Assembly (NCBI GenBank): GCA_039807095.1
Contig: JBDHQM010000007.1
Coordinates: 9,388 to 73,387, forward strand
DNA: 64,000 bases
Source: Kiritimatiellia bacterium
Lineage (GTDB): Bacteria > Verrucomicrobiota > Kiritimatiellia > CAIVKH01
Reading direction: 5' to 3'
Numbering within the stretch: position 1 is the stretch's first letter; the number at the start of each line of letters is the position of its first letter. The notes under the pieces are model-generated. The model was not told the origin of the DNA. It did not search any database and was given only the letters and a program-made list of their open reading frames with translations. This document shows, in pieces, positions 12,610 to 15,573 of the stretch. Made by a program: the position numbers and the translations under genes.

Positions 12610-14815
12610 GTGCGCGGCTTGCGCACTGAGCCTCTTTTTTGTGCTGAACGCCGGAGCAGGCGACTTGCTGCCACCGATGACAAACGGTGTGCCCTCGGAA
12701 TTTGCGCCACGCCGCGCGGGCGCGGAAGTCGGCGCAAATCTCAAACTTTTTGTGACAAATGAAGGATTGTACAAAATATCGTACAGCAACCTTGTTGCTG
12801 CCGGGATCGCGAATCCGGTGGGATCAGAGCTTCGCCTCTTTTGCCGTACGCAGGAGATAGCACTTGTAACGAGCAGCACCGGTGCGTGGGATTCGTCTGA
12901 CTACGCCGTCTTTTTTGGCCGTCCACACGACGGATACTGGACCAAAACGAATACCTATTGGCTGGGCATTGGCGGAAGCGGATTGCGAATGACAGAGCGA
13001 AACGCCGCGCCACAGACCAATATCGTCGTAGATCAAACCTCGCACTGGGCTACGGTTCGATATGCGCCTAAAAATATTTTCCCGTTTGCCTATCGGCCCA
13101 CTGACGACACGTTTGATCACTGGATCGCCGAGAATATCTATCGCACCTCAGCCGTGAATATCAGTGTGACGCTACCGCACGTGATGAAAGGAGCCACTTC
13201 CACCGCGACGGTTTATCTCGCGCTGTGGGGACGCACTGCGGATGCAGCGAATCCGGATCACGCCACACGTTTCAGGATGAATGGGGCGGCGTCGCAAACA
13301 AATTATTATGACGGGCTGGAGTTTTATCTGGCGACGAATGTTGTCCCGCAGTCTGTCCTGAACAACGGCGCAAATACGATTCAGTTGCAGCAGGTTGCCA
13401 CGAACCCGCCCAACGATGTTGCATCGTTGCAGTGGGTGTCAGTGGTTTATGAGGCGAGCAATCGGGTGGCAGCCGGGAAACTGGATTTGGACGGCATTTC
13501 GGGGACGGCGAATTATGCTGCATCGCCGTGGAATACAAACGAGACGCCGTGGTTGCTGGACATCACGGACCCCGTGCGCCCGGTGCGGTTAAAGAATTGG
13601 GAGTTGGACGCAGGGGATGGCAACGGCCGCGTGCGATGGGGCGATTTTGCGCCCAAGACGAATCGCTATTGGCTCGCATCGCCGACCAGCCTAGTGAATG
13701 TGGCGATTTCGGGCCCTGTTCTTTTCCGGGATTTCACGAACACGACGCGGAAGTTCGATTATCTGATTATTACGGATGGCAATTTATCAACCGGCGCCTA
13801 TCAGCTTGCGAAATACCGCGCCCGGGATGGAATGAAGACCTTGATGGTGCCGATCGGCAGCGTGTATGACGAGTTCAGCTACGGCATCAAGGATGCGAGC
13901 GCGATCAAGCAGTTCATCGGATACGCGTATCATCACTGGGCGCAGCCACCGAAATATGTCGTTCTGGTCGGGGACGGGAATTACGCGCCGTGGCAATATT
14001 CCGATTCGATACCGGTGTATATGGGGCCAAGCGCGTTTGAATTTTGCGCGCAGGACGGGTGGTTTGGAACGGTAGATGGCCCGGATCATGTGCGCGATGT
14101 TCAGATTGGCCGCTTTCCGGTGGTGACGGTCGCGCAAATGACGGGCGCAGTCGCGAGGATTGCGAAATATGAGGCGAGCGCAGTAGGCGCCAACTGGCGA
14201 AAGAAAGCGCTTTATGCCGCCGATGTGAATGATGTCGCGCCGTATCATTTTCAAGATATGACCGATACGAATATTGTGACAAATCTCGTATTGGCTGGAG
14301 TAACAACGCACACGAAGGCCTATTATAACGGATCGAATTCTGCTGCGGTGATTGCGCAAATCAACAATGCAGTCAATGGCGCAAATTCATCGGGGCCGAT
14401 ATTCAGCGTTTCGTATGTCGGCCACGGATATCACAACGATTGGGCGCCGGGATTTGATAATTCGCGCGTGTTACTGCTGACGAATGCGGTCAGCCAACCA
14501 ATGTTTGCGATGTGGACGTGCGCGAATGGCGCTTTCGCGGATCCGACGAATACGCCGATGGCGGAGCTGTTGATCCGGCGCGAGTGGAATCGCGGTGCAT
14601 CAGTTACGATTTCAGGCTCAGGCCTGACGGCGAACGAAGCGATCAAGTGGATGGCGAACGGATTTTACAGCTATTTTACGAACAGCTTTCCCCGTTCCCG
14701 TGTTGGCGATGCGATGGATGCAGGAATTCTTTCCTTGCAAGGCGTTTCGCCCGGGTCGCGTGAAATGCTGTTCTATAATCTTTTCGGCGACCCTGCACAG
14801 GTGGTGCGGCCATGA
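12587..14815 (+). CDS. Peptidase C25 family (gingipain/PorU-like cysteine peptidase) with its own signal peptide and a ~360-aa N-terminal region.
   Basis: The signal peptide is 'MNLKNRIECAACALSLFFVLNAGAG'. The catalytic core reads 'DYLIITDGNLSTGAYQLAKYRARDGMKTLMVPIGSVYDEF...VVLVGDGNYAPWQY...GRFPV'. A putative His/Cys dyad sits in 'VGHGYHNDW' and 'MWTCANGAF'. Confidence 0.7.
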   Translation: MNLKNRIECAACALSLFFVLNAGAGDLLPPMTNGVPSEFAPRRAGAEVGANLKLFVTNEGLYKISYSNLVAAGIANPVGSELRLFCRTQEIALVTSSTGAWDSSDYAVFFGRPHDGYWTKTNTYWLGIGGSGLRMTERNAAPQTNIVVDQTSHWATVRYAPKNIFPFAYRPTDDTFDHWIAENIYRTSAVNISVTLPHVMKGATSTATVYLALWGRTADAANPDHATRFRMNGAASQTNYYDGLEFYLATNVVPQSVLNNGANTIQLQQVATNPPNDVASLQWVSVVYEASNRVAAGKLDLDGISGTANYAASPWNTNETPWLLDITDPVRPVRLKNWELDAGDGNGRVRWGDFAPKTNRYWLASPTSLVNVAISGPVLFRDFTNTTRKFDYLIITDGNLSTGAYQLAKYRARDGMKTLMVPIGSVYDEFSYGIKDASAIKQFIGYAYHHWAQPPKYVVLVGDGNYAPWQYSDSIPVYMGPSAFEFCAQDGWFGTVDGPDHVRDVQIGRFPVVTVAQMTGAVARIAKYEASAVGANWRKKALYAADVNDVAPYHFQDMTDTNIVTNLVLAGVTTHTKAYYNGSNSAAVIAQINNAVNGANSSGPIFSVSYVGHGYHNDWAPGFDNSRVLLLTNAVSQPMFAMWTCANGAFADPTNTPMAELLIRREWNRGASVTISGSGLTANEAIKWMANGFYSYFTNSFPRSRVGDAMDAGILSLQGVSPGSREMLFYNLFGDPAQVVRP

Positions 14816-15573
14816 TTCGAACCCTGTTAGGCATTTTAGTTTTCGCTGCGCTATCGGTTCGCGCTGACGATGTGGGCGATGTGCCCGCGAATGCGGAGTT
14901 GTTGGATACGGGCACTGTCACGCGCGTGATTGAGCGATATGACGATGTGGATGTTTTTCAGCTTCCTGTGCTGCCGTATGTGACGAATGTGGTGACCGTT
15001 TCGACCGGCACGGTTTTCGATTGCGAAATGGAGCTGTATGCGCCGCCAGGTCTGGTGATCTCGCTCGCGACGAATACCGCAGTCGGGGTTCCGCAGTCGC
15101 TCGAAATTCTGAACACATCCATGGCGACCCGTGCGTATCTCTCAGTGAAAAGTCTGGCGGAGTTCACAACGGGCTCCTATCAGGTGGCGCTATCGCAGCG
15201 TTTTGCGGATGTGAACGGGAATGGATTGCCGGATGAATGGGAGGTCGCAAAGTTCGGCGGCGTGACAAACATCACCGCAGAGGGCGATGTGGATGGCGAC
15301 GGGTTCTCGAATCGCAATGAATGGCTCGCGGGAACGCATCCGAACGATCCGGGCTCTGCGCTGCGTATTTCGCGAATTCAGCGCAGTACGAACGGGACGC
15401 TGGTGACGTGGACGTCGCTGCCGGATGGGCGATATCGGGTGCAGAGTGCGACGAATCTGTTTGCGGCTTGGAATACGCTGCCCGACACCGTTCTCGCGGA
15501 CTCCATTTCAACGACGAGCGCTGTGCCGGTCGTCGCAACGGGCAATCTGTTCCGCGTTGAACTGATCTACTGA
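14812..15573 (+). CDS. Secreted free-standing PPC (pre-peptidase C-terminal) domain protein carrying a bacterial TSP3-like Asp-loop pair and a C-terminal 'FRVEL' beta domain.
   Basis: Its ATG overlaps the upstream TGA (ATGA), so translation is coupled. The signal peptide is 'MIRTLLGILVFAALSVRA'. The PPC-like pattern is 'DDVDVFQL...CEMELYAPPG...GSYQVAL'. It is followed by 'DVNGNGLPDEWE...DVDGDGFSNRNEWLAGTHPNDP' and 'TLVTWTSLPDGRYRVQSATNL...NLFRVELIY'. Confidence 0.55.
   Translation: MIRTLLGILVFAALSVRADDVGDVPANAELLDTGTVTRVIERYDDVDVFQLPVLPYVTNVVTVSTGTVFDCEMELYAPPGLVISLATNTAVGVPQSLEILNTSMATRAYLSVKSLAEFTTGSYQVALSQRFADVNGNGLPDEWEVAKFGGVTNITAEGDVDGDGFSNRNEWLAGTHPNDPGSALRISRIQRSTNGTLVTWTSLPDGRYRVQSATNLFAAWNTLPDTVLADSISTTSAVPVVATGNLFRVELIY

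What the first reader, a model, noticed from the sequence alone, without database searches (positions are those of the whole stretch)
14812..15573. Free-standing PPC domain protein translationally coupled to the peptidase
PPC (pre-peptidase C-terminal) domains normally form the C-terminal extension of secreted proteases. Here the D-x-D...LY...G-Y-V PPC pattern is in a separate 253-aa secreted protein. Its start codon overlaps the peptidase stop (ATGA). Together with the split propeptide, the protease's usual N- and C-terminal accessory domains are all encoded in trans. The same protein also carries the TSP3/'FRVEL' surface module.
Basis: partly seen in the sequence, partly recalled or inferred. 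Interest (0 to 1): 0.6.

Follow-up and report, generated by a model that had tools for sequence, protein, structure and literature searches.

The report
Stand-alone PPC-domain partner of C25 peptidase
A small secreted protein, encoded right behind a gingipain-type (C25) cysteine peptidase in a Kiritimatiellia bacterium, is a divergent "pre-peptidase C-terminal" domain plus a surface-type tail; a few relatives fuse it to the peptidase, so it is probably that enzyme's separately encoded accessory piece.

Summary
ORF 14812..15573 (+, 253 aa) is a real, conserved gene, and its ATG overlaps the C25 peptidase stop codon (ATGA).

It has four parts:
- a signal peptide;
- a ~112-aa N-terminal domain;
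- a TSP3 calcium-type linker;
- a ~70-aa FN3-like C-terminal domain.

Pfam's PPC model does not hit the N-terminal domain, even at E<=10. Other evidence shows it is a divergent PPC domain:
- A family profile recruits tandem-repeat proteins whose repeats are Pfam PPC (hhalign 99.6%).
- A second-round profile hits the collagenase PPC/CBD structures.
- The AlphaFold model best matches those same structures.

Two relatives (950 and 988 aa, three samples) fuse this protein to the C25 peptidase, with the signal peptide replaced by a linker. The fusion is derived; the separate gene is the rule. The gene follows the C25 gene in all 15 loci examined, down to 29% peptidase identity. An NTP_transf_5 gene is often found between or beside them.

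The TSP3+FN3 tail is a C-terminal tail found across PVC bacteria on subtilases, CotH proteins, glycosidases and others. No Pfam or NCBIfam model covers it.

Best reading: a trans-encoded targeting or anchoring module of the peptidase system. Physical association has not been tested.

Verdict: a new variant of a known kind, of moderate interest.

The parts
14812..15573 (+). Gene for the 253-aa PPC / TSP3 / FN3-like-tail protein (stop codon included)
   Evidence: ORF. Orthologues at 42-72% identity. Conserved downstream of C25 in all 15 loci examined.
14812..14815 (+). ATGA start/stop overlap with the C25 peptidase gene; an SD-like aGGtGGtG lies 8-15 nt upstream
   Evidence: Sequence. The same 4-nt or 1-nt overlaps occur in L001-L004 and L011. 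L008 has a 12-nt gap.
14812..14865 (+). Signal peptide (aa 1-18, MIRTLLGILVFAALSVRA); predicted cleavage before DDVGD
   Evidence: Read from the sequence. The A|DDVG(N/D) junction is conserved. Helix at aa 2-14 in the model. The segment is lost and replaced by an acidic linker in the fused relatives.
14866..15201 (+). Divergent PPC (pre-peptidase C-terminal / collagen-binding-domain-like) beta-sandwich, aa 19-130
   Evidence: No Pfam PPC hit. The family profile finds 1321 proteins, and sampled top hits carry Pfam PPC repeats at the same coordinates. hhalign 99.6%, E 6.4e-25. The second-round profile hits PDB entries 5iku, 3jqw, 5sv5 and 1nqd. The AF2 model matches 5sv5 (TM 0.68), 3jqw (0.67) and 1nqd (0.63).
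15202..15357 (+). TSP3-type calcium-binding linker, aa 131-182 (D-x-N-G-N-G-L-P-D-E-W-E ... D-V-D-G-D-G-F-S-N-R-N-E-W-L-A-G-T-H-P-N-D)
   Evidence: Pfam TSP3_bac 23.9 bits at aa 159-180, cutoff 25. Above cutoff in relatives. NCBIfam Amuc_1099_fam sub-threshold hit on the same stretch.
15358..15570 (+). FN3/Ig-like C-terminal beta-sandwich, aa 183-253, ending FRVELIY; together with the TSP3 linker it forms the PVC-wide C-terminal tail
   Evidence: AF2 model of the tail alone has pLDDT 81 and six strands. Only generic FN3/Ig matches, best E 0.018. The tail lies at the C-terminal end in 71 of 76 ORFs from Verrucomicrobiota, Victivallales and Kiritimatiellia.
12587..14815 (+). C25 (gingipain/PorU-type) cysteine peptidase, 742 aa, with its own signal peptide and no propeptide domain
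   Evidence: Pfam PF01364, E 1.3e-62. PorU-type NCBIfam models match well below their cutoffs. The G-H-G and T-C-x-N-G motifs are conserved in 72 of 73 homologues.
11938..12609 (+). Separate Propeptide_C25 gene. The likely true start is ATG 12007 (MRILSW..., a signal peptide)
   Evidence: Pfam PF08126, 28.7 bits against a cutoff of 22. A separate 161-200-aa gene in L001-L010. Fused to the peptidase in distant ~1000-aa homologues.
41..12001 (+). Giant SdrD_B/CLIPPER-type repeat adhesin directly upstream of the cassette; the ORF may run off the left end of the window
   Evidence: ORF. Pfam SdrD_B on its C-terminal part. Orthologous giants carry CLIPPER, SdrD_B and SpaA domains. Its C-terminal region is 28% identical over 109 aa to aa 30-135 of the peptidase.
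15602..16666 (-). NTP_transf_5 (uncharacterised nucleotidyltransferase) gene, convergent with the PPC gene; third conserved member of the cassette
   Evidence: Pfam PF14907, E 2.9e-34. 78-86% identical in the close loci. Same-strand and between C25 and the PPC gene in L010, L012, L013 and L092. ORF-level fusions with the PPC protein: P0178, P0234, P0247.

Best explanation
The gene encodes a Sec-exported protein of about 25 kDa. After signal-peptide removal, the mature chain starts at the first residue (DDVG) of a single divergent PPC beta-sandwich. A TSP3 calcium-binding linker follows, then an FN3-like C-terminal domain.

The linker plus C-terminal domain form the same tail that many secreted enzymes of Verrucomicrobiota, Lentisphaerota and Kiritimatiellota carry at their C-terminus.

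I read the protein as the separately encoded C-terminal accessory module of the neighbouring C25 cysteine peptidase. It is made from the same transcript, with its start overlapping the peptidase stop, so the two are probably produced together. After export it likely binds the peptidase, or the peptidase's substrate, through the PPC domain. It would then hold the complex at the cell envelope through the TSP3/FN3 tail.

This gives the unfused peptidase what the fused relatives have in one chain. That layout resembles gingipain: propeptide, catalytic domain, beta-sandwich, C-terminal localisation domain.

Shown here: gene reality, domain identities, conserved gene linkage, the fusions, and the wide C-terminal distribution of the tail. 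Inferred: co-translation, the physical complex, the anchoring role, and the identity of the substrate (the adjacent giant adhesin is the obvious candidate).
For: 1. Rosetta-stone fusions. P0032 (950 aa, L005) and P0034 (988 aa, identical in two samples, L006 and L007) carry C25 plus this whole protein in one frame at 55-59% identity. An acidic linker replaces the signal peptide, and no signal peptide is hidden in another frame.

2. Conserved linkage. The PPC-tail gene lies downstream of C25 on the same strand in L001-L013, and also in L091 and L092. Peptidase identity there falls to 29-41%, and the flanking genes differ.

3. Start/stop overlap in the window and in close relatives.

4. PPC identity of the N-domain. 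In characterised secreted proteases, PPC domains bind insoluble substrate and modulate activity (PMC6168687, PMC3327674, titles and abstracts listed).

5. The tail is C-terminal in 71 of 76 ORFs. It sits on subtilases with a PA domain, CotH with LTD, Laminin_G_3, glycoside hydrolases and a lipase, as expected of a localisation module. It also sits on a GH31 enzyme in this window.

6. The peptidase looks catalytically competent: the His and Cys motifs are conserved in 72 of 73 homologues.
Against: - No experiment or interface prediction links the two proteins. Multimer modelling was not available.
- The free-standing state is ancestral and the fusion is a single derived event. The protein clearly works without covalent linkage and could have a role of its own.
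- In deeper relatives an NTP_transf_5 gene sits between the two genes, and ORF-level NTase-PPC fusions exist. The closest functional partner could therefore be the NTase rather than the peptidase.
- The function of the tail (anchor, secretion signal or ligand binding) is unknown. Its fold gives only generic FN3/Ig matches.
- The curated Pfam PPC model does not match.
- The promoter and terminator scan is uninformative, so co-transcription is only inferred from gene spacing.
Confidence: 0.5

Rival explanations
1. Substrate or cargo of a sortase-like C25 enzyme. The C25 peptidase would act like PorU. It would recognise the TSP3/FN3 tail as a C-terminal sorting domain, cleave it, and attach the PPC domain (and other tail-bearing proteins, or the giant adhesin) to a surface polymer.
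For: - The best NCBIfam matches of the peptidase are the PorU and PorU2 T9SS sortase models.
- The tail behaves like a C-terminal sorting tag: it is terminal in 71 of 76 ORFs on very diverse passenger domains.
- PorU itself carries a C-terminal domain (own knowledge), so the fused relatives do not contradict this reading.
Against: - The PorU models score 173-180 bits against cutoffs of 420-450.
- The tail is spread over Verrucomicrobiota, Victivallales and Kiritimatiellia. The close C25 relatives that carry a source name are all Kiritimatiellae/Kiritimatiellia, which suggests a narrower range. No genome-by-genome comparison was made.
- The tail has no Pfam Por_Secre_tail hit. No T9SS C-terminal domain appears among the top 50 fold matches.
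- No T9SS components were looked for or seen.
Confidence: 0.15
2. Partner of the NTP_transf_5 protein rather than of the peptidase. The PPC-tail protein would be the extracytoplasmic half of a membrane-spanning pair, fused in some species with the signal peptide acting as a membrane anchor. The pair might modify or sense something at the envelope, and the peptidase would be only a neighbour in the same pathway.
For: - The NTase gene is directly upstream and overlapping in L010, L012, L013 and L092.
- Three cluster representatives are single NTase-PPC ORFs that keep a hydrophobic stretch between the halves.
- The NTase is the best-conserved gene of the neighbourhood, at 78-86% identity.
Against: - L008 and L009 keep C25 and the PPC gene adjacent with no NTase in the 8 kb downstream.
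- In the window the NTase is on the opposite strand.
- In L091 a Val just before the RRRLLAAAL... stretch, if encoded by GTG (the codon was not checked), would restore a normal signal peptide. The fusions may therefore be read-through ORF calls with internal initiation.
- The C25-PPC fusions have truly lost the signal peptide, which is stronger evidence of a covalent functional unit.
Confidence: 0.15
3. An independent small surface or secreted binding protein: a PPC lectin- or adhesin-like module on the standard PVC tail. It would sit next to the peptidase by operon history and have no mechanistic tie to it.
For: - Proteins consisting only of PPC domains, without any peptidase domain, are common among the recruited hits.
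- The tail occurs on many unrelated proteins.
- The free-standing state is ancestral.
Against: - Linkage to C25 holds in all 15 loci examined, despite different flanking genes and peptidase identity down to 29%.
- An in-frame fusion with loss of the signal peptide has been kept in a subclade and seen in three samples.
Confidence: 0.12
4. A second trans-acting maturation factor or inhibitor, acting like the propeptide protein. The PPC domain would fold or mask the peptidase during export and would later be removed, as PPC domains are trimmed from several secreted proteases.
For: - PPC domains are removed during maturation of some proteases (PMC3327674, abstract).
- The propeptide of this peptidase is already supplied in trans.
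Against: - A temporary chaperone would not need a surface-type tail.
- No sequence or fold similarity to known inhibitory prodomains was seen.
Confidence: 0.08

Closest known systems
PPC / collagen-binding domains of secreted bacterial proteases (Pfam PF04151; ColG s3a/s3b, ColH s3, B. anthracis collagenase PPC; PDB 5iku, 1nqd, 3jqw, 5sv5)
   Same: Same predicted beta-sandwich fold (TM 0.63-0.68 over ~105-114 columns). Same motif layout: D-x-D-(W/V)-F, L-Y-x-P-x-G, T-G-(T/S)-Y. In two relatives the domain sits C-terminal to a secreted peptidase.
   Different: Below detection by the curated Pfam model. Attached to a clan CD C25 cysteine peptidase system rather than to M9, M4 or S8 enzymes. Normally a separate polypeptide with its own signal peptide. 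Followed by a TSP3/FN3 tail. Ligand unknown, and the calcium-switch residues were not examined.
Gingipain RgpB / PorU architecture (propeptide, C25 catalytic domain, Ig-like domain, T9SS C-terminal domain) of Bacteroidota
   Same: Taken together, the cassette supplies the same order of parts: Propeptide_C25, Peptidase_C25, a beta-sandwich, and a C-terminal beta-sandwich tail. The fused relatives have the last three parts in one chain.
   Different: Here the parts are three genes, each with its own signal peptide. The beta-sandwich is PPC-type rather than IgSF. The tail has no detectable relation to the T9SS C-terminal domain. The organism is a Kiritimatiellia (PVC) bacterium. The PorU NCBIfam models are far below cutoff. 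Comparison with the gingipain layout rests on my own knowledge of that family.
C-terminal sorting or anchoring tags of secreted proteins (T9SS C-terminal domain, PEP-CTERM, LPXTG, and the other Haft-type 'dependent' families)
   Same: The TSP3+FN3 tail lies at the extreme C-terminus of many unrelated secreted enzymes within one superphylum.
   Different: It is a folded ~120-aa unit of TSP3 plus FN3-like domain, not a short transmembrane tag. No processing enzyme is known. No Pfam or NCBIfam model covers it as a unit. Cleavage and attachment are untested.
Amuc_1099 family pilus-like system protein (NCBIfam NF042425)
   Same: Shares the TSP3 stretch (aa 158-182 here against model positions 128-152). 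A true family member lies in the same window at 34951..36003, inside an Amuc_1098-1101-type cluster.
   Different: Only the TSP3 repeat matches: 27.8 bits against a cutoff of 50. The rest of the protein is unrelated.

Membership tests
[quoted passage not shown] | Match to the curated Pfam HMM at or above its gathering score (25.9 bits) | tested here: not met
   No PF04151 hit at E<=1 for the window protein, and none at E<=10 for any of the 14 family members.
[quoted passage not shown] | Homology to accepted PPC domains, shown by profile methods | tested here: met
   The family profile finds 1321 proteins at E<=1e-3. Most of the sampled top hits are tandem-repeat proteins carrying PF04151 above cutoff at overlapping coordinates, for example P0154 at 150-218 within 122-232. 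hhalign of the family profile against the recruited repeats gives 99.6%, E 6.4e-25, over 110 columns. 46 of 73 domains in the mixed alignment hit PF04151. That alignment hits ColG, ColH and B. anthracis PPC structures at E 1.8e-12 to 4.5e-6.
[quoted passage not shown] | Collagen-binding-domain-type beta-sandwich fold | tested here: met
   The AF2 model has pLDDT ~75 over aa 30-130. Foldseek matches 5sv5 (TM 0.68, rmsd 3.2), 3jqw (0.67) and 1nqd (0.63), each at probability 1.00. Look-alike folds (C-CPE, GOLD) also appear. This is a predicted structure, not a solved one.
[quoted passage not shown] | Position C-terminal to the catalytic domain of a secreted peptidase | tested here: inconclusive
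   Not met in the window, where it is a separate gene. Met in the fused relatives P0032 and P0034.
Bacterial TSP3 repeat (Pfam PF18884) | Match to the Pfam HMM at or above 25 bits | tested here: inconclusive
   The window protein scores 23.9 bits (E 3.8e-05), just under the cutoff. Relatives pass: P0006 at 34.6 bits and P0014 at 27.9 bits. All 14 members match at some level.
T9SS C-terminal sorting domain (Pfam PF18962, Por_Secre_tail) | HMM match, or a T9SS-CTD-like fold, for the C-terminal ~70-80 aa | tested here: not met
   No PF18962 hit for any family member. The tail-only model (pLDDT 81) gives only generic FN3/Ig matches. The best is E 0.018, and no T9SS C-terminal domain is among the top 50.
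Amuc_1099 family pilus-like system protein (NCBIfam NF042425) | Whole-protein score at or above 50 bits across the 321-position model | tested here: not met
   27.8 bits, covering only model positions 128-152, which is the TSP3 stretch.
Neighbouring enzyme: T9SS sortase PorU / PorU2 (NCBIfam NF033707, NF052324) | Score at or above the curated cutoffs (420 / 450 bits) | tested here: not met
   172.8 and 180.4 bits. The enzyme is a C25 family peptidase (Pfam 212.7 bits) but not a PorU equivalog.
Functional partner of the C25 peptidase (gene-fusion and gene-neighbourhood criterion) | Fusion in some genomes, plus conserved adjacency across divergent genomes | tested here: met
   Fusions in L005, L006 and L007. 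Adjacency or near-adjacency in all 15 loci examined, down to 29% C25 identity.
Functional partner of the C25 peptidase (physical criterion) | Direct binding to, or co-localisation with, the peptidase | not testable with these tools
   No multimer prediction and no experimental data were available.

The most novel reading that the evidence does not exclude
The ~120-aa TSP3+FN3 tail is an undescribed C-terminal sorting or anchoring signal of the PVC superphylum, a functional counterpart of the T9SS C-terminal domain. The conserved trio of C25 peptidase, NTP_transf_5 and PPC-tail protein, with its trans-acting propeptide, is then a dedicated machine. It would process and fix the adjacent isopeptide-type giant adhesin, or tail-bearing proteins, to the cell surface. 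The 253-aa protein would serve as its tail-bearing adaptor subunit.
Probability: 0.12. Interest if true: 0.8.

Novelty: new variant of a known kind. Interest (0 to 1): 0.5.

Why it matters
PPC domains are known mainly as C-terminal parts of secreted metallo- and serine proteases. Here a divergent PPC domain, invisible to the curated model, serves a clan CD (gingipain-type) peptidase system in a poorly studied phylum. It is usually a separate secreted subunit.

Natural fusions give a clean genomic argument that the two proteins work together. The work also exposes two things worth describing properly:
- a conserved cassette in Kiritimatiellia: giant adhesin, trans propeptide, C25 peptidase, NTP_transf_5, and the PPC-tail protein;
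- a C-terminal TSP3+FN3 tail found across PVC bacteria on dozens of kinds of secreted enzymes, with no family model.

If that tail is a localisation signal, it would help predict the surface proteome and secretome of Verrucomicrobiota, including Akkermansia, and of Kiritimatiellota. How proteins reach and stay on the surface is largely unknown in these groups.

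Tried and rejected
- **Direct Pfam and NCBIfam scans for PPC**. No hit. Five members gave weak P_proprotein hits (best E 0.0017), which is suggestive only.
- **PDB sequence searches with the narrow family profiles**. Nothing meaningful. Only the second-round profile reached the collagenase PPC structures.
- **The search for homologous proteins with the tail-only alignment**. It returned 13 short fragments and not even the family itself, so it was useless as a census. I used the genome-contig scan instead.
- **T9SS-CTD hypothesis for the tail.** Rejected at the level of sequence and predicted fold.
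- **Fusions as assembly or frameshift artefacts.** Rejected. The 988-aa gene is identical in two samples. A second, divergent fused gene exists. The linkers are in frame, and no frame hides a signal peptide.
- **Fission of an ancestral fused gene.** Rejected for the PPC part by the NJ tree. This is a rough distance tree without support values. Fission remains plausible for the propeptide.
- **Promoter and terminator scan of 11800-16900**. Counts equal the shuffled expectation, so it is uninformative.
- **Literature searches** for C25 in Kiritimatiellae, PF14907, CLIPPER, and PPC or TSP3 tails in Verrucomicrobia. They found no description of this cassette or of the tail. They returned only general PPC biology and the CLIPPER (DUF11) isopeptide survey (PMC12617251).
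- **Two encoding-contig runs failed for technical reasons**. P0002 was never retried.

Full report
**1. The observation**

ORF 14812..15573 (+) encodes 253 aa. Its ATG at 14812 overlaps the TGA of ORF 12587..14815 in the sequence gccATGAttcg. An aGGtGGtG stretch 8-15 nt upstream could serve as a ribosome-binding site.

The upstream ORF is a C25 cysteine peptidase (Pfam PF01364, E 1.3e-62). The ORF before it (11938..12609) is a separate Propeptide_C25 protein, scoring 28.7 bits against a cutoff of 22.

The 253-aa ORF is a real gene. A search of 5.8 billion proteins returned:
- an identical entry;
- a 72% identical protein from a Kiritimatiellae MAG;
- eleven more orthologues at 42-63% identity, all 245-283 aa.

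The family alignment shows a conserved signal-peptide end followed by A|DDVG(N/D), then three conserved blocks.

**2. What the three parts are**

*N-terminal domain (aa 19-130).* Pfam's PPC model does not hit it. There is nothing at E<=1 for the window protein, and nothing at E<=10 for any of the 14 family members. Five members hit the P_proprotein domain weakly. Deeper tests reverse that verdict.

- *Profile search.* A profile of the domain alone (A2) was searched against 1.84 billion cluster representatives. It found 1321 proteins at E<=1e-3 and 399 at E<=1e-10. Many carry 4-23 tandem copies.
- *Pfam on the hits.* Six of the ten sampled hits carry PF04151 well above threshold, at coordinates that contain or overlap my matches.
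- *Profile-profile comparison.* hhalign of the family profile against the recruited repeats gives 99.6% probability, E 6.4e-25, over 110 of 112 columns.
- *Second-round alignment (A5).* It holds 73 domains, of which 46 hit PF04151 individually. It matches the solved collagenase PPC/collagen-binding domains by sequence: 5iku at 1.8e-12, 3jqw at 8.6e-08, 5sv5 at 2.2e-07 and 1nqd at 4.5e-06.
- *Independent fold evidence.* The AlphaFold2 model (mean pLDDT 70, about 75 over the domain) has as its best compact PDB matches 5sv5, described as the 'pre-peptidase C-terminal domain of collagenase' (TM 0.68, rmsd 3.2 Å), then 3jqw (0.67) and 1nqd (0.63). Similar sandwiches (C-CPE, GOLD) follow.

I conclude that the domain is a divergent member of the PPC superfamily that lies outside the reach of the curated model.

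*Linker (aa 131-182).* This is a TSP3-type calcium-binding repeat pair. It scores 23.9 bits against a cutoff of 25 here, and it passes in relatives. The same stretch gives a sub-threshold hit to the Amuc_1099 family.

*C-terminal domain (aa 183-253, ending FRVELIY).* A model of the tail alone has pLDDT 81 and six strands. It finds only generic FN3/Ig sandwiches. The best match has E 0.018, and no T9SS C-terminal domain appears among the top 50.

**3. The tail is a general PVC module**

An HMM of aa 131-253 finds the same module at the C-terminus of two other proteins in this window: a GH31 glycosidase (56535..59990) and a 222-aa protein (26912..27580). Its TSP3 half also matches 34951..36003.

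A scan of one genome per GTDB species found at least 358 loci. The 80 best are mostly Verrucomicrobiota, with Victivallales, Kiritimatiellia and a few others. Only three of these 80 are full-length relatives of the 253-aa protein.

In 71 of 76 ORFs with a long match, the module lies at the C-terminal end of the ORF. ORF lengths range from 229 to more than 2100 aa.

The passenger domains of 31 sampled proteins include subtilase with PA (5), CotH with LTD (5-6), Laminin_G_3, GH16, alpha-amylase, GDSL lipase and Golvesin_C. No NCBIfam model covers the tail. My literature searches found no description of it.

**4. Link to the peptidase**

I surveyed 120 relatives of the C25 peptidase.
- Those above about 32% identity are around 730-765 aa, with few exceptions, and carry only PF01364.
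- Most of those at or below about 31% identity are around 1000 aa, with Propeptide_C25 fused. They include Anaerolineae and Omnitrophica MAGs.
- Two close relatives stand out: P0032 (950 aa) and P0034 (988 aa).

Both outliers end in a full copy of the 253-aa protein, at 55% identity over aa 19-253 and 59% over aa 28-253. Neither contains the propeptide.

In the fused genes the signal peptide is replaced by an acidic, proline-rich linker (...GDPAQVVKPLMHDEVEAPPEEFSCTPASPEALATGS...). The DNA shows no signal peptide in any other frame. P0034 is found identically in two sequencing projects, and P0032 in a third. The fusions are therefore real.

In a neighbour-joining tree of 73 peptidases, the two fused genes are sisters nested among unfused ones. 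This points to one derived fusion event. The free-standing gene is the ancestral state in this clade. That tree is a rough distance tree without support values.

Gene order was checked in 15 loci. In L001-L013 the PPC-tail gene lies downstream of C25 on the same strand. This includes:
- L008/L009 (41% peptidase identity), where every flanking gene differs;
- L010 (35%);
- L012 (37%);
- L013 (29%), where the propeptide is fused to the peptidase in a 1021-aa ORF.

L092 (30% identity) has C25, then NTP_transf_5, then a 313-aa protein with the PPC-like domain (E 9e-15) and the tail. It has no giant adhesin directly upstream. L091 has a C25 C-terminus followed by a single NTase-PPC ORF. L093, a more distant C25 gene, has no such partner.

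**5.

The convergent gene 15602..16666 (-) is an NTP_transf_5 nucleotidyltransferase (E 2.9e-34). It is the best-conserved gene of the neighbourhood, at 78-86% identity.

In L010, L012, L013 and L092 it lies between C25 and the PPC gene, on the same strand and mostly overlapping. Three cluster representatives (P0178, P0234, P0247) are single ORFs with the NTase followed by the PPC-tail protein. These keep a signal-peptide-like hydrophobic stretch. In P0234 a Val just before RRRLLAAAL..., if encoded by GTG (the codon was not checked), would restore a normal signal peptide. Internal initiation therefore cannot be excluded.

The role of this NTase is unknown. The held literature has essentially nothing on PF14907.

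**6. How it most likely works**

*Shown:*
- the gene is real;
- it encodes signal peptide, PPC domain, TSP3 linker and FN3-like domain;
- it is linked to the C25 peptidase by conserved order and by a natural fusion;
- its tail is a common C-terminal module of PVC secreted proteins;
- the peptidase keeps its His and Cys motifs in 72 of 73 homologues.

*Inferred:* the proteins are co-translated and exported separately. The PPC domain binds the peptidase or its substrate. The tail keeps the assembly at the envelope. Together with the trans propeptide, this reproduces a gingipain-like layout from three polypeptides.

The giant SdrD_B/CLIPPER adhesin upstream is the obvious candidate substrate or partner. 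CLIPPER is the renamed DUF11, a predicted isopeptide domain (PMC12617251). The adhesin's C-terminal region shares 28% identity over 109 aa with aa 30-135 of the peptidase (E 9e-07).

I put 0.5 on this accessory-subunit reading. The rivals are:

| Rival reading | Confidence |
|---|---|
| Substrate of a sortase-like C25 | 0.15 |
| Partner of the NTase | 0.15 |
| Independent binding protein | 0.12 |
| Trans chaperone or inhibitor | 0.08 |

**7. Comparison with what is known, and novelty**

The domain works like, and is homologous to, the PPC/collagen-binding domains of secreted proteases. It fails the curated family threshold. It serves a different peptidase clan, and it is normally a separate subunit.

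The cassette resembles the gingipain/PorU domain order, but it is not a PorU equivalog (173-180 bits against cutoffs of 420-450). Its tail is not a T9SS C-terminal domain.

I rate it a new variant of a known kind. The more unusual by-products are the undescribed PVC-wide tail and the C25 / NTase / PPC-tail trio.

**8. Limits**

- All structure evidence is predicted.
- The tree is a simple distance tree.
- The taxonomic census is capped at 80 loci and relies on MAG labels, some clearly mis-binned.
- No interaction, localisation or activity data exist.

Noticed in passing
window 32304..39219 (+): An Akkermansia-type pilus-like gene cluster. It comprises an Amuc_1101/PilM-like protein (32304..33986; its PilM model passes the cutoff), an Amuc_1100-like protein (33983..34954, below cutoff), an Amuc_1099 family protein (34951..36003, 85.8 bits against a cutoff of 50) and an Amuc_1098-type secretin (36094..39219, below cutoff). 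The TSP3 stretch of the Amuc_1099 protein is the same motif that opens the C-terminal tail of the 253-aa protein. This raises the untested idea that tail-bearing proteins interact with this apparatus.
   Followed up: partly
window 56535..59990 (+) and 26912..27580 (+): A GH31 glycosidase (1151 aa) and a small 222-aa secreted protein end in the same TSP3+FN3-like tail as the 253-aa protein. The tail is thus used at least three times within 64 kb.
   Followed up: yes
window 15602..16666 (-); L010 10201-11280; L012 2277-3401; L013 4638-5927; L092 9198-10448; L091 224-2023: An NTP_transf_5 (PF14907) gene is a conserved third member of the C25 / PPC-tail cassette. In deeper relatives it lies between the two genes. 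Three cluster representatives are single NTase-PPC ORFs that keep a signal-peptide-like segment. Function unknown.
   Followed up: partly
window about 11375..11690 (in ORF 41..12001) versus 12674..12991 (in ORF 12587..14815): The C-terminal region of the giant adhesin shares 28% identity over 109 aa (pairwise E 9e-07) with aa 30-135 of the C25 peptidase, around the motif G(I/L)Y(R/K)(L/I)SY..LV.AGI. This is a shared domain of unknown role, possibly a recognition or docking element.
   Followed up: no
L091 2059-4519 (-) and L093 3291-5857 (+): A PqqD, radical SAM, 59/63-aa peptide and ScmC set lies directly beside the C25 cassette in two distant loci. I read it, from memory, as a SynChlorMet-type RiPP-like cassette. 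It is absent from the window.
   Followed up: no
window 11938..12609 (+): The propeptide ORF listed from GTG 11938 more likely starts at ATG 12007 (MRILSWVGGAATAWALTCAVVAGA...), 5 nt after the adhesin stop. That gives a 200-aa secreted protein, matching the 161-200-aa orthologues. Its 3' end overlaps the peptidase start by 23 nt.
   Followed up: partly
window 41..12001 (+): A giant (>=3986 aa) repeat protein made of dozens of SdrD_B-like units, with long antisense ORFs caused by the repeats (for example 7637..11848 on the minus strand, which is not a gene). Orthologues carry CLIPPER (ex-DUF11) predicted isopeptide domains.
   Followed up: no
L003 9024-9371: One orthologous locus has a 115-aa 23S_rRNA_IVP/bAvd-type gene inserted between the isocitrate dehydrogenase gene and the CTP_transf_like gene. 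The window has no such gene there.
   Followed up: no
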